Source: Promethearchaeota archaeon | GTDB lineage: Archaea > Asgardarchaeota > Lokiarchaeia > Sigyniarchaeales > SOKP01 | Direction: 5' to 3' | Length of the DNA stretch: 64,000 nt | NCBI GenBank assembly: GCA_016840085.1 | Contig: JAEOTA010000056.1 | Location: 1-64,000, forward strand | Part shown: one piece after another, positions 30,300 to 58,498 of the stretch | How positions within the stretch are numbered: the stretch's first letter is position 1 | Layout: the number at the start of each line of letters is the position of its first letter | Notes under the pieces: generated by a model | Told to the model about the DNA's origin: nothing | The model's input: the letters and a program-made list of their open reading frames with translations, nothing else | Database searches by the model: none | Position numbers and translations under genes: made by a program

Positions 30300-30893
30300 A
30301 TGCCGGTATATCGAAATATCGGGGAGTTCCTTGAATTTATCAATATTAGCAACGATAAATTTACATTTTTTGAATGGAAGCCTTCCCAGTCGTTCAGAAG
30401 ATTTGATTTAGACCTAAATATCGTTAGAGAAAATGAAACTGCGGATATTTTTTTTCATAAAGATAAGGGTAATATGAAAATTGTCTATATAAGAAAAAAT
30501 AATCTTATTTATACAGTAGGGTCGAGTCCAGAAGTACAATTTCAATTATTAGAAGCATTACTAGAATATATAGATTTAAAATTCAATGAAACTTATGATG
30601 TTGAAGTTATTTTATCTTATGGTAATTTCTCTCCTAACATTTTTGATGGATTTAAAGAAACTACTAAAGATATTTTAGCTAATTTTGCAGAGTTAGATTT
30701 AGTAAAAAGAATTCACATAGAATGTAGAGTCTGTAAGAAAGTCTTACCTTTATTTGTTAAAAAAAGCTTTATACAAAATGCTGAGTCCTATCCTGTTCCT
30801 ATTGTATATGTTCATGCAGGACATGCCACACTCTGTTTTATAGATCAAGATTTTCACCATCGTGGCGTAGAACTTGTTAATATTACAGGCTGA
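30300..30893 (+). CDS. Asgard-type hypothetical protein (longin-like N-terminus, CxxC/H C-terminal domain)
   Basis: Longin-like strand/helix pattern, then CRVC...YPVPIVYVHAGHA..FIDQDF..RG. Confidence 0.55.
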   Translation: MPVYRNIGEFLEFINISNDKFTFFEWKPSQSFRRFDLDLNIVRENETADIFFHKDKGNMKIVYIRKNNLIYTVGSSPEVQFQLLEALLEYIDLKFNETYDVEVILSYGNFSPNIFDGFKETTKDILANFAELDLVKRIHIECRVCKKVLPLFVKKSFIQNAESYPVPIVYVHAGHATLCFIDQDFHHRGVELVNITG

Positions 30894-54535: not shown

Positions 54536-54874
54536 CTAAAAGAAATTTCTCGTCTCGAATCTATATGCTGCTCGCGTTAAACCTACATAATTATCTGAGA
54601 TTTTATAAAACATTTTACCATTTACAATTTTCTTCTGTAAGTAATTATTTTTTAGAGTATGATTGAGAGCGCCGATCATAGTCCCTAGCGTGACTGCTCC
54701 TATAAACCCATGCTGTTTTTTAGTTACTCTTATTAATTCAAGCTCAGAATGCCACTGACCATCGAGTAAAGCTATTAGAATTTCGTTTTTAATTGGAGTT
54801 TTAATATCCTTAATTTTATTAAATAAAATTGAATAGCTAGGTTTATAGTATTTATTTTCCTCAATTCCTTCCAT
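54536..54874 (-). CDS. Winged-helix-like hypothetical protein
   Basis: ILIALLDGQWHSE.EL helix pattern with a C-terminal beta hairpin (K...GKMFYKI). Confidence 0.55.
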   Translation of the reverse strand: MEGIEENKYYKPSYSILFNKIKDIKTPIKNEILIALLDGQWHSELELIRVTKKQHGFIGAVTLGTMIGALNHTLKNNYLQKKIVNGKMFYKISDNYVGLTRAAYRFETRNFF

Positions 54875-54986
54875 TATTTAAATTACCTTTAAAAAAGAGA
54901 GTTTATAATATTAAATAATACTAAATTTTGTTATTTAACTAAATATATTATCACAGTATTATGAAAATTCAATTGGATAATATTCA

Positions 54987-56108
54987 TTATATCAAATCAG
55001 GTGTGATGCCCTCTTTAAAATATCTGGCTCGAGTTATCCAATTGTCTGAGAATTCTGGAATCATGGCCAGAATAGAACCACCAATCCAAACGGAAAATGT
55101 CCTTTCTTGAGGAGCAATAATTCTGAGGGACTGATCTTTTTTCTTCCTCCTAGCCAACTCCAATTCTAATTCTTGATATATACGTGATTTTAGATTAGGG
55201 AACATTGAAGATCCTCCAGATAGAAATATGTTGTTTAATAATTCTGGACGAATATCTAAATCACAAGCTCCAATCACATCTATTATAGCAACGGGTAATG
55301 AGTCTTCCTCTAATTCTGAAGAAGGGTTAAATAAGAGCTCTGGTACAATAAATCTTTCTTTATTCAAAGAAATAGTGGAGCCATCGGGTAAGGAATATTC
55401 CTTTTCATACTGTTCACTTCTTCTTAGGTCTTCTTTATAATCTAGCGATACAAAACAAGCCTTTTCCTTTAATACTCGAACTAGTTCTCGTCTTATAGAT
55501 GAATCTACAGACCATCCAATTGATTCTAATGTTTGTTCCATATACCGAGTTAAGACTCTTCCTCCTATGTCCAAAATCTTTACTGCATGTTCTAATTTAT
55601 AGCCTTCATAAATTGGAACAATTCTGGTATTACTATCACCAATTTCAATAATTAAGCCTGTTTGAAATCCTCCTGAATATAGAGTCAACATAGAATCAAG
55701 TACAGGATAAAAAGCCATGCATTGATACTGCTCTAAGAAAAGTTCAAAAATTTTTTTTAAATCTTTATACGGAAATAAAGGGTGTACAGCAAATAATACA
55801 TGCACCAAAGTGGGATCTACTCTCAAATTATAAAAAATATAATCAATAATGTTTTCAAAACGTGCCCAATCTATAATCATCCCTCGTTCTATAGGATGAG
55901 AAATCTTATATAAACCAATTGATTGAATTTCATCACCAACATAGATTTCATTTTCTCGAGATTCATTTGTTACATAATCAATCCCTACACTTTGGTATTT
56001 GGGCTGCCCAACCATCGTTAAAAATACTTGGCTAGGTGAATCTTCTCCTGCAAATCCGATCTTTGAACTAAACTGACCTATATCTAAAACAACAGTAAGA
56101 TTTCCCAT
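54987..56108 (-). CDS. Asgard actin-family (actin-related) protein
   Basis: KIGFAGEDSP, HPIERG.I.DW, VPIYEGY, KEKACFV, YSLPDG, LSGGSSMFP and SVWIGGSILA. Confidence 0.95.
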   Translation of the reverse strand: MGNLTVVLDIGQFSSKIGFAGEDSPSQVFLTMVGQPKYQSVGIDYVTNESRENEIYVGDEIQSIGLYKISHPIERGMIIDWARFENIIDYIFYNLRVDPTLVHVLFAVHPLFPYKDLKKIFELFLEQYQCMAFYPVLDSMLTLYSGGFQTGLIIEIGDSNTRIVPIYEGYKLEHAVKILDIGGRVLTRYMEQTLESIGWSVDSSIRRELVRVLKEKACFVSLDYKEDLRRSEQYEKEYSLPDGSTISLNKERFIVPELLFNPSSELEEDSLPVAIIDVIGACDLDIRPELLNNIFLSGGSSMFPNLKSRIYQELELELARRKKKDQSLRIIAPQERTFSVWIGGSILAMIPEFSDNWITRARYFKEGITPDLI

Positions 56109-56200
56109 AATTTATATTAATTCAAATTTCTTTTTTGTTAAATAGCCTAAAGACCAATATTTAATATATTATTATACTAATTCAAAAATATTATTTACTT

Positions 56201-56947
56201 TTATACTAATAAAATTTTTAGTGGAGTATATGTAGTTTCCGGCATGAATGCTTCCCCATATTCGCTATTAATCTCATTCCCTCGTAAAATAGCAGTGTCT
56301 TTTGCCCAATCTAAAACGCGTTCTAAAACTTCTTTTTGAGAAATATATACACGATTAAAAATTTCTTTTTTACGTTCCCAGGTCTCAGTAATATCTACAA
56401 TTACAAATACAGATCCTTCAATATATTGAAATTTGCATGATGGGGATTCATAATAATAAACTCCATAAGGTTTCCATTCTCTTCCATGACCTCCGTAAGC
56501 TTTCCCGGTAGAACAATGATAAATTGCTTCTCTTACTACAAATGATAAATTTCGATGCACTCTATGAAAATCTGTATAATGAGGTAATAAAATTACTTGA
56601 GGTTTGTAATCTCTTATCAAATTCGTAATTTCTGCAATTTTTTCTCTTTCTCTCTCTAAATTTGAATAATTTAATTCTATAATTTCACATTTTAAAATTT
56701 CCTTTATAAAATCTAGTTCTTTTTCTCTCTGAGATGATATTGTTTCTTTATCCCGTTGTTTAGCATAACCACCTAATCCCCTAGTAGCTATAACAATAAC
56801 AATTTCAGAACCAAGATCTTGATATTTTAAAATTGTTCCACCACAAGAAATTAATTCATCATCAGGATGTCCTGCAAAGACAATTACTTTTTTTGGTATA
56901 ATTACAGGAAGCTTATCTTCACATATCAAAAATGAATTTTCTGGCAT
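56201..56947 (-). CDS. PIG-L/LmbE family deacetylase
   Basis: HPDDE...GGT, R.KE, H.VH and YGEAF. Confidence 0.9.
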   Translation of the reverse strand: MPENSFLICEDKLPVIIPKKVIVFAGHPDDELISCGGTILKYQDLGSEIVIVIATRGLGGYAKQRDKETISSQREKELDFIKEILKCEIIELNYSNLEREREKIAEITNLIRDYKPQVILLPHYTDFHRVHRNLSFVVREAIYHCSTGKAYGGHGREWKPYGVYYYESPSCKFQYIEGSVFVIVDITETWERKKEIFNRVYISQKEVLERVLDWAKDTAILRGNEINSEYGEAFMPETTYTPLKILLV

Positions 56948-57148
56948 TTAATATTAATTTTATCTTAAATATAAAAAACTTTGTTGAATTTCTATTTGAA
57001 GTTCATATTGAGAATTTAGGATCTACTTCTTAAATTTTAAAGCTACAATAATAAGTAATAAAAAGGAAGAGAAAAAGTATCTTAAGTTTCTATTCTACAA
57101 TTTGATTCTCTCAATAGAATGTATAATTCTACCCAATTAAGGATTTAG

Positions 57149-57871
57149 CTATTCTCCTCTCATGATCTTCTTCAATCTATTTAACTCATCGAGCATTTCA
57201 TCTCTAAGAGATCCTAAACCACCGCCTACTTGAGGAGCAGCTGCAGGTGCTGTAGGAGCTGCTGTGCCAGGAGGTCTTGGCGGTCCGCCACTAGGAGCTG
57301 TGGCAGGTGGTGCAGTTGGAGCGACAGGTCTTTTTGCAAATGTTGGTGCTTTTGGTGGACCACCACCAGCTGGAACTTTAGGGGGACCTCCACCTGAAGG
57401 AGGTAGTTTAGGGGCGGGTGGCAAATTACCACGCTTAGGGGGACCGCCACCAGGAGGTGCTTTAGGAGGACCTCCACTAGGGGGTGCCTTTGGAGGACCA
57501 CCACCAGGTGGCGCTTTAGGAGGACTACCACCACTTGGAGGAGCAGGGGTAGCTGTCAGACTGGGGGGAGGTGGAGCTGCTGCTGAAGCCTCAGATGGAA
57601 CTCCTCCGCTTAATAAGGAAAATAATGTGCTAGCTGCGGCTGTTTTAGCAGTATCAGGGGTTGCTGCTGCTACTATTTTTTTAGAGGAAGTACTTACTGT
57701 TTGAACTTCTTCTACAGTAATATCTTTTAAATCCTTCTGGGCTTTAGCTAAAGACTTGATAAAATCATTAATTCCTTTTACAGACTCCTCAAGATCATCA
57801 GCTAAAGAAGTTAGACCTTTTTTCATAAAATTAATAACGCGTTCGATTTTTTTTTGCTCTTTTGAAACCAC
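57149..57871 (-). CDS. Proline-rich protein with N- and C-terminal coiled-coil helices (VASP/NPF-like architecture)
   Basis: GGPPKAPP repeats; terminal GGLGSLRDEMLDELNRLKKIM. Confidence 0.8.
   Translation of the reverse strand: MVSKEQKKIERVINFMKKGLTSLADDLEESVKGINDFIKSLAKAQKDLKDITVEEVQTVSTSSKKIVAAATPDTAKTAAASTLFSLLSGGVPSEASAAAPPPPSLTATPAPPSGGSPPKAPPGGGPPKAPPSGGPPKAPPGGGPPKRGNLPPAPKLPPSGGGPPKVPAGGGPPKAPTFAKRPVAPTAPPATAPSGGPPRPPGTAAPTAPAAAPQVGGGLGSLRDEMLDELNRLKKIMRGE
57340..57540 (-). repeat. 27-nt intragenic repeats encoding GG(G/S)PPKAPP
   Basis: Four tandem plus two degenerate units are visible in the translation. Confidence 0.85.
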
Positions 57872-58152
57872 GTCTTACTCAATTCCTCTAATATTATTGA
57901 AAGTTTGATAAAAAGTTATTATTACTAGTAATAATCTAATATTTTAATTATATAATAAATTAATATGTATTTATATTTTTATTCCATTCTTGAATGAACT
58001 TTTAATTTGAACTAACCAGTATTTCTGAAAAAACGTTAATTATTAAAAAACCTAAACTAATAATATTATATAACATATTTCATTAGTAATTTTTAAATTA
58101 ATTACATTATAAATTCAAAAAAAAAATAAGACATAACTAAAATTTTTGCATT

Positions 58153-58158
58153 GGTGAT
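58153..58158 (+). promoter_or_regulatory. Shine-Dalgarno GGTGAT for the intron-split gene
   Basis: Complementary to the archaeal 16S 3' end; ends 5 nt before ATT 58164. Confidence 0.65.
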
Positions 58159-58163
58159 TAAAT

Positions 58164-58498
58164 ATTCCTAAAAGAGAGCTCTTCATAATAGACTTAACAC
58201 TCCGTTAGGTTTGTGAAAAAAGGGTATATGAAATAGTAAACGAGCTCAAAATACCACTGTTCCATTGAGATCTCCTCATTTTACATTTGGAGTGGACATT
58301 GACGAGCGCGTTTATGATAAGGTTACTTTCAGTACGGGATCGGCGATCGCATCCGTCATTTTCAAATTTGAAGAGGATGAATCTGTAATCCGAGGATTCC
58401 TCGGTCTTGCTGAATACTTTCATACTGTTGTAATTAAGCGTAAGGACGAGTTTTTCATTCCTCATGCGTCTATATTGTTCCGTTTGATTAGCGCTTAA
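58164..58498 (+). CDS. 88-aa protein encoded by three exons: join(58164..58188,58219..58259,58298..58498), ATT start
   Basis: Spliced product: MPKRELFIKRVYEIVNELKIPLIDERVYDKVTFSTGSAIASVIFKFEEDESVIRGFLGLAEYFHTVVIKRKDEFFIPHASILFRLISA. Exons total 25+41+201=267 nt. The ORF track's TTG 58265 start lies inside intron 2. Confidence 0.75.
58189..58218 (+). other. Putative BHB intron 1 (30 nt, contains in-frame UAG)
   Basis: Central helix UCAU(58183-86)/GUGA(58213-16); bulges AAU and AAA; 9-bp intron stem AGACUUAAC/GUUAGGUUU; exon helix GCUCU/AGGGU. Confidence 0.7.
58260..58297 (+). other. Putative BHB intron 2 (38 nt, frameshifting, contains in-frame UGA)
   Basis: Central helix CCAC(58254-57)/GUGG(58292-95); bulges UGU and ACA; intron stem UCCA/UGGA plus UGAG/CUCA; closing A-U pair and GCUC/GAGC exon helix. 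Confidence 0.78.

What the first reader, a model, noticed from the sequence alone, without database searches (positions are those of the whole stretch)
58164..58498. Protein-coding gene apparently split by two tRNA-type bulge-helix-bulge introns
Seen in sequence: behind a GGTGAT ribosome-binding site the frame starts ATT CCT AAA AGA GAG CTC TTC ATA and is broken twice by short hairpin inserts. Insert 1 has central helix UCAU/GUGA, bulges AAU and AAA, and a 9-bp inner stem. Insert 2 has central helix CCAC/GUGG, bulges UGU and ACA, and inner stem UCCA/UGGA. Established: the archaeal splicing endonuclease EndA cuts after the second base of each 3-nt bulge and RtcB ligates. Applying that rule removes 58189-58218 and 58260-58297, giving TTC ATA A|AA AGG and CCA CTG|ATT GAC. 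The result is one uninterrupted 88-aa ORF (MPKRELFIKRVYEIVNELKIPLIDERVYDK...). For intron 1 I chose between two possible registers by frame; intron 2 is unambiguous. The outer exon helices are imperfect. The archaeal mRNA intron I know of is the single one in crenarchaeal cbf5. Inference: this is a multi-intron mRNA in an Asgard archaeon spliced by the tRNA machinery, reminiscent of non-spliceosomal HAC1/XBP1 splicing.
Basis: partly seen in the sequence, partly recalled or inferred. Interest (0 to 1): 0.96.

Follow-up and report, generated by a model that had tools for sequence, protein, structure and literature searches.

The report
Two tRNA-type introns in Asgard gene
A small conserved protein gene of a Loki-type Asgard archaeon is broken by two tiny inserts shaped like tRNA introns, and relatives show that its message almost certainly has to be cut and rejoined by the tRNA-splicing enzymes, which the papers I could search report for only one archaeal coding sequence (cbf5).

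Summary
Observation confirmed. Removing 58189-58218 (30 nt, in-frame TAG) and 58260-58297 (38 nt, frameshift) gives an 88-aa protein whose N-terminus matches intron-less orthologues residue for residue. Relatives carry 29-52-nt inserts at three sites of this gene. All 30 break the frame; 27 of 29 distinct ones form the 4-bp bulge-helix-bulge core exactly in EndA register (0 of 29 at slides of 1-4 nt). Stems covary and exons are under purifying selection. A motif-free census finds such inserts in this genome's only uS3 gene and in EF-2. Best reading: EndA/RtcB-spliced mRNA introns (0.9). Amber readthrough and ribosomal bypassing fail their tests. Splicing itself is not shown: the one RNA run held a different relative, and the catalytic EndA subunit lies outside this assembly. 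Added here: the intron-bearing 5' part (about 200 nt) is far more diverged from the nearest intron-less relative than the rest of the locus and resembles distant intron carriers, suggesting arrival by a recombination tract. Protein function is unresolved. The scan noted this kind of intron before in other Asgard DNA, probably also in this gene family.

The parts
58152..58157 (+). Shine-Dalgarno-like site (TGGTGA); the upstream TGCAT is shared by several intron-1 carriers
   Evidence: sequence; alignment of upstream regions
58164..58188 (+). Exon 1 (ATT start, codons 1-8 plus one base); supplies the 5' strands of the outer and central helices of intron 1
   Evidence: codon 8 is ATA in 18/18 intron-1 carriers vs 33/126 others
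58189..58218 (+). Intron 1, 30 nt, BHB type, in-frame TAG at 58206-08, 9-bp inner stem
   Evidence: same site holds 30-52-nt inserts in 19 other copies
58219..58259 (+). Exon 2 (41 nt, codons 9-22)
   Evidence: identical peptide in intron-less orthologues; pS 0.59 vs pN 0.04 over codons 2-22 among intron-1 carriers
58260..58297 (+). Intron 2, 38 nt, BHB type, frameshifting
   Evidence: same site holds different 30-nt inserts in L071 and L100 with covarying central helix
58298..58498 (+). Exon 3 (codons 23-88 and TAA); a third intron site (codons 66/67) is empty here but filled in 7 related copies
58100..58320 (+). Mosaic tract: 5' leader, exons 1-2 and both introns, only 65-75% like the nearest intron-less relative whose flanks are 88-92% alike
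   Evidence: boundaries approximate

Best explanation
The gene is an intact three-exon protein gene. Its transcript folds two bulge-helix-bulge motifs; the tRNA splicing endonuclease EndA (two-subunit type, which tolerates relaxed outer helices) cuts after the second base of each bulge and RtcB joins the exons, giving the mRNA for a conserved 88-aa alpha/beta protein of unknown function. Shown: the inserts, their shape and register, their variability, selection on exons, and the same inserts in essential genes. Inferred: cleavage by EndA, ligation by RtcB, existence of the spliced mRNA. The introns are gained and lost at a few permissive sites; in this strain the intron-bearing 5' part probably came in as a short recombination tract from a more distant lineage (less certain, about 0.7 for this locus).
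For: Spliced product equals intron-less orthologues; gene found in 140 of 154 genomes of the order. 30 inserts at three sites in relatives, all frame-breaking (11 frameshift, 19 stop), 27/29 distinct ones with 4/4 central helix in register, 0/29 at slides of 1-4 nt. Site-2 helix covaries with the exon's synonymous bases (CCAC/GTGG, CCGT/GCGG, CCAT/GTGG). For 13 site-1 copies 99.1% of cells pair, 6 pairs change on both sides, 0/500 shuffles reach this, slid controls 32-52% (kin are not independent). Exons 1-2 of intron carriers: pS 0.59, pN 0.04. Motif-free census with a 1.2-Mb sample of a relative's genes: the 8 best-supported frame-breaking inserts in this genome are 30-38 nt and 7 have a 4/4 helix, among them two in EF-2 and two in the single uS3 gene; uS3 has same-site inserts in 8 more genomes with a covarying helix at site 55. 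RtcB and an EndA subunit are in the genome; all 20 relatives searched have two or more EndA matches. Asgard tRNA genes are intron-rich and BHB-bounded (bioRxiv 10.64898/2026.10.13.758758).
Against: No junction read: the only RNA run holds a different relative whose intron state is unknown. The EndA subunit found lacks the catalytic His; the catalytic paralogue is not in this assembly, although its two neighbours are missing too, which points to an assembly gap. The lowest-energy fold of intron 1 is not the BHB; outer exon helices are offset or interrupted; some inserts (uS3 second site, two site-3 copies) have only 2-3 of 4 central pairs. The exact 38-nt insert is known from this assembly alone.
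Confidence: 0.9

Rival explanations
1. Amber readthrough (pyrrolysine or Gln) lets ribosomes read insert 1 as ten extra residues; insert 2 is avoided by a downstream start (TTG 58265).
For: Insert 1 is 30 nt and in frame with one TAG; gene callers did translate it with TAG=Q; earlier scan notes proposed it.
Against: Insert 2 shifts the frame; the same site 1 holds 37-, 43- and 52-nt inserts; the insert's sequence varies as a stem, not as a peptide; no PylRS over the cut-off in this genome; no orthologue starts with the TTG-58265 peptide.
Confidence: 0.03
2. Programmed ribosomal bypassing (as in T4 gene 60 or yeast mitochondrial byps, from my own knowledge): the ribosome hops over hairpin inserts that stay in the mRNA.
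For: Short hairpin inserts of 29-52 nt that break the frame of conserved genes; no RNA evidence of splicing here.
Against: Bypassing needs matching take-off and landing codons: neither window insert has them, and only 2 of 30 inserts show an identical pair among five tested positions. Bypassing does not explain the exon-intron central helix in EndA register.
Confidence: 0.03
3. The inserts are disabling mutations and the gene is a pseudogene in the carriers.
For: Most relatives lack the inserts; function and essentiality of the protein are unknown.
Against: Single copy in this genome; strong purifying selection on all exons among carriers; inserts recur at three sites only; the single uS3 gene has the same kind of break.
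Confidence: 0.02
4. Assembly artefact or DNA-level excision.
For: Draft metagenome assembly (7.6% contamination); raw DNA reads were not checked; insert 2 is unique in sequence; the 5' tract is mosaic.
Against: Insert 1 occurs in many independent assemblies with different sequence; site 2 is used in two other lineages; no second copy of either insert in the genome and no repeats at the ends.
Confidence: 0.02

Closest known systems
BHB intron of cbf5 pre-mRNA in Crenarchaeota (Watanabe 2002; Yoshinari 2006; Yokobori 2009, PMC2738675)
   Same: Short intron in a coding sequence, relaxed BHB at the borders, cuts after the second bulge base, patchy gain and loss, hetero-oligomeric EndA.
   Different: cbf5 has one intron at one site in one gene and splicing was shown. 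Here two introns in one small gene, three sites in the family, further introns in EF-2, uS3 and other genes of the same genome, in Asgard archaea; splicing is not shown here. PMC2738675 notes that introns in other genes were predicted but unconfirmed.
BHB intron in the 5' UTR of Haloferax HVO_1309 (PMC7714728)
   Same: mRNA substrate of the splicing endonuclease.
   Different: Untranslated region, single case; here the inserts break the reading frame.
Non-canonical, multiple tRNA introns of Asgard archaea (bioRxiv 10.64898/2026.10.13.758758)
   Same: Same phylum, same motif, repeated gains at a limited set of positions.
   Different: That study covers tRNA genes only (no mention of mRNA) and finds no route of intron arrival; here coding genes, with a candidate recombination tract.
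HAC1/XBP1 unconventional splicing (own knowledge)
   Same: mRNA intron removed by a protein endonuclease and a tRNA ligase, restoring a frame.
   Different: Cut by IRE1 at stem-loops, stress-regulated; no BHB, no EndA; regulation not tested here.

Membership tests
Archaeal BHB (EndA-type) intron | 4-bp central helix between exon and intron end | tested here: met
   4/4 in both window introns; 27/29 distinct inserts, 0/29 slid; covariation
Archaeal BHB (EndA-type) intron | Two 3-nt bulges on opposite strands; cuts after the second base give the functional product | tested here: met
   Cut rule restores the orthologous peptide at both sites and in relatives
Archaeal BHB (EndA-type) intron | Intron-intron helix next to the bulge | tested here: met
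   9 bp and 4 bp in the window; 5 of 9 pairs with two-sided changes in 13 site-1 copies
Archaeal BHB (EndA-type) intron | Exon-exon helix directly adjoining (strict hBHBh') | tested here: inconclusive
   Intron 1: 5 bp, offset by one base, 15/18 carriers vs 35/126 others; intron 2: one pair, then a loop, then more pairs. A relaxed motif, as in cbf5
Archaeal BHB (EndA-type) intron | Host encodes two-subunit EndA and RtcB | tested here: inconclusive
   RtcB and the His-less subunit present; catalytic subunit and both neighbours absent from this assembly, present in close relatives
Archaeal BHB (EndA-type) intron | Spliced RNA, circular intron or in vitro cleavage | not testable with these tools
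   Only RNA run offered holds another relative
Group I / group II self-splicing intron | Ribozyme core of hundreds of bases | tested here: not met
   30 and 38 nt; no Rfam match at E<=1
Programmed translational bypassing element | Matching take-off and landing codons | tested here: not met
   None for either window insert; 2 of 30 overall
Pyrrolysine / amber recoding | In-frame TAG as only break, with PylRS in the genome | tested here: not met
   Second insert shifts the frame; PylRS model under cut-off (25.5 vs 178 bits) in a 98.8% complete genome

The most novel reading that the evidence does not exclude
In Lokiarchaeia, EndA/RtcB splicing of multi-intron mRNAs is a routine, genome-wide step that even essential genes (uS3, EF-2) depend on, and the endonuclease-free mini-introns spread sideways between distant lineages as short gene-conversion tracts centred on the intron site, which would be the missing route of intron arrival.
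Probability: 0.4. Interest if true: 0.92.

Novelty: new variant of a known kind. Interest (0 to 1): 0.8.

Why it matters
In the papers I could search, splicing inside an archaeal coding sequence is documented for cbf5 alone. Multi-intron mRNAs in the closest archaeal relatives of eukaryotes would show protein-catalysed mRNA splicing as a normal part of gene expression without a spliceosome, and bear on the origin of HAC1/XBP1-type splicing and on when exon-intron gene structure became tolerable. It also means Asgard genes are being missed, truncated or mis-called as TAG-recoded by annotation pipelines. This small gene, with three polymorphic sites and close relatives with and without introns, is a compact system for the open question of how BHB introns arrive.

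Tried and rejected
RNA evidence: one seawater RNA run; its contig has many synonymous differences and other letters at the joint, so it is another relative and proves nothing. De novo genome scan for BHB plus frame rescue: no excess over mirror-geometry controls (2833 vs 2832-2895), so dropped for a homology census; two scripts timed out. Protein function: no Pfam family, no Foldseek match at E<=0.001, best Z 4.5, atlas rows are weak or its own cluster; 29 representatives only; unresolved. Donor copies of the introns in the genome: none better than E 0.4. A third intron in the 5' leader: tried by eye, no consistent helix. Synonymous constraint in exon 3: not seen. One search used a wrong family number; the L003 row was on the wrong strand; both ignored. 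Low-scoring census rows (under 12 identities in flanks, or antisense frames) are noise. Promoter scan is for bacterial sites and uninformative. Five literature searches found no report of Asgard coding-sequence introns; subscription papers are not covered.

Full report
Observation. The sequence at 58164-58498 is as described. Removing 58189-58218 and 58260-58297 gives 88 codons and a stop; unspliced, the frame meets a TAG inside insert 1 and shifts at insert 2. Both inserts have a 4-bp central helix, two 3-nt bulges and an inner stem. The two regions fold better than shuffles (z -3.1 and -2.4); the lowest-energy fold of intron 2 contains the BHB, that of intron 1 a neighbouring register.

The gene. 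Exon 3 has 313 homologues, mostly 88 aa, named Promethearchaeota/Lokiarchaeota where named. Their N-termini equal the spliced product and never the TTG-58265 peptide. The gene is in 140 of 154 genomes of the order and in some other Asgard families, and is single copy here. It folds as a small alpha/beta domain (pLDDT 85) without a known family or clear structural match. It lies divergent from a proline-rich protein, PIG-L deacetylase and actin-family gene; a link to them is untested.

Inserts in relatives. A protein-to-DNA aligner with a free insertion state and no RNA-shape term found inserts at three sites only: after codon 8 (30, 33, 37, 43, 52 nt), after codon 22 (30, 38 nt) and at codons 66/67 (29, 31, 36 nt). 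At least 17 of the 140 genomes carry one; two metagenome copies carry two. Loci were partly picked for broken matches, so these are not frequencies. All 30 inserts break the frame. In the register set by the EndA rule (established: cut after the second base of each bulge; PMC2738675), 27 of 29 distinct inserts pair 4/4 in the central helix and the other two 3/4; slid by 1-4 nt, none does. At site 2 the intron strand follows synonymous changes in the exon strand. For 13 site-1 copies the three helices pair in 99.1% of cells with six two-sided changes, above all shuffles and slides; relatedness inflates this. Exon bases that form the motif are fixed in carriers (codon 8 ATA 18/18 vs 33/126; codon 66 GTA 7/7 vs 20/147). 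Among carriers exons 1-2 show pS 0.59 and pN 0.04. On the gene tree site 1 needs about five changes, at least three forced by strong branches: repeated gain or loss.

Not a one-gene oddity. Proteins from a 1.2-Mb sample of relative G006 (about 1,000 orthologous frames) were aligned to this genome without any motif filter. The eight best-supported frame-breaking inserts are 30-38 nt: two in EF-2, two in uS3, one each in an acyl-CoA synthetase and a Rab-like GTPase, and the two studied here; seven have a 4/4 helix. uS3 is single copy, and eight further genomes have inserts at the same two uS3 sites, with a two-sided change in the helix of the first. A broken single uS3 cannot be a pseudogene, so the cell must remove or skip these inserts.

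Machinery. RtcB is present. The one EndA homologue keeps the Tyr but lacks the catalytic His of the M. jannaschii enzyme, so it is the structural subunit. All 20 relatives searched have two or more EndA matches, and the second paralogue has the His in the six examined. In this assembly that gene and both its neighbours are missing, most simply an assembly gap. The two-subunit type is the one that cleaves relaxed motifs (PMC2738675).

Rivals. Amber readthrough fails on the frameshifting inserts and the lack of PylRS; two database proteins with the insert translated are gene-caller TAG=Q products. Bypassing lacks matched codons. Pseudogene and artefact readings fail on selection and recurrence. 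Direct RNA evidence was not obtained.

How the introns may have arrived. The nearest intron-less relatives (L031, L032) are 88-92% identical in the flanking genes and 99% and 97% over codons 31-65, yet only 65-75% over 58100-58300; 20 of codons 2-30 differ against 7 of the other 58 (p 1.4e-7; best of 125 intron-less control pairs 5.6e-5; the partner was chosen on the far part, which inflates such values). Over codons 2-22 the window is closest to L008 (90%), a carrier whose flanks are only 73% alike, and it shares the leader motif of carriers. The more distant L007 shares the L031 form, so the change is in the window's lineage. Weaker clusters of differences surround the intron site in L100, L154, L029 and L133, but not in most pairs. 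Inference: a recombination tract brought the intron-bearing 5' part; selection on exon bases for pairing explains part of the codon signal but not the leader. Intron 2 may have come with it or later.

Comparison and verdict. It works like the cbf5 mRNA intron and meets the sequence-testable BHB features; enzyme action is untested. Print documents cbf5 and one 5' UTR case (PMC7714728), and Asgard tRNA introns with no known arrival route (bioRxiv 10.64898/2026.10.13.758758). This scan's notes report the same kind of intron in other Asgard genes and genomes, one with RNA support that I did not check. New variant of a known kind; confidence 0.9; interest 0.8.

Noticed in passing
window 58164-58166 and 154 related copies: The codon at the start position is often non-AUG: ATG 85, ATT 31, TTG 19, ATA 8, ACG 4, ATC 2, usually behind a GGTG-type site. 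May mark translational control and explains why gene callers miss the gene.
   Followed up: partly
window 58148-58157; L003, L008, L020, L029, L062, L070, L081: A leader motif TGCAT(T/A)GGTG and a longer leader go with intron 1 in several separate lineages and are absent from their intron-less neighbours; other carriers (L066, L139, L159) lack it. Unexplained.
   Followed up: partly
L319 (G000:C4 16302-16273 and 16173-16144, minus strand): EF-2 carries two 30-nt stop-containing BHB inserts in the GTPase domain.
   Followed up: yes
L318 (G000:C85 142161-142191 and about 142250-142280); L310-L317: Single uS3 gene with a 31-nt and a 30-nt insert; same sites in 8 more genomes; the second has only 2-3 central pairs; L311 has a third, in-frame open 30-nt BHB insert near codon 7.
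   Followed up: yes
G000:C6 14028-13999 (minus) and C24 about 30579-30608 (plus): 30-nt stop-containing inserts in an acyl-CoA synthetase and a Rab-like GTPase.
   Followed up: partly
window about 58425-58450 vs L031, L032: A second small patch of divergence (codons 66-73) sits at the empty third intron site; L031 and L032 have the GTA codon of site-3 carriers. Possibly a trace of an earlier conversion or intron loss.
   Followed up: no
L321-L334 vs G000: Catalytic EndA subunit lies between an ATP synthase A-like gene and a MEMO1-like gene in relatives; all three are missing from this assembly.
   Followed up: yes
window 54536-57871 (minus strand): Proline-rich protein, PIG-L deacetylase, actin-family gene and small helix-turn-helix-like gene, conserved next to this gene in close relatives.
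   Followed up: no
L304-L307 (P0023, P0027): Public gene calls read intron 1 through with TAG=Q, creating false 98-aa proteins.
   Followed up: yes
L309 (G146:C23 11739-12000): A divergent paralogue has a small frameshift near codon 31 without a BHB; probably an ordinary broken copy or assembly error.
   Followed up: partly
L213: A record labelled as an Actinomycetota genome holds this Loki gene deep inside the Loki tree; probably mis-binned.
   Followed up: no
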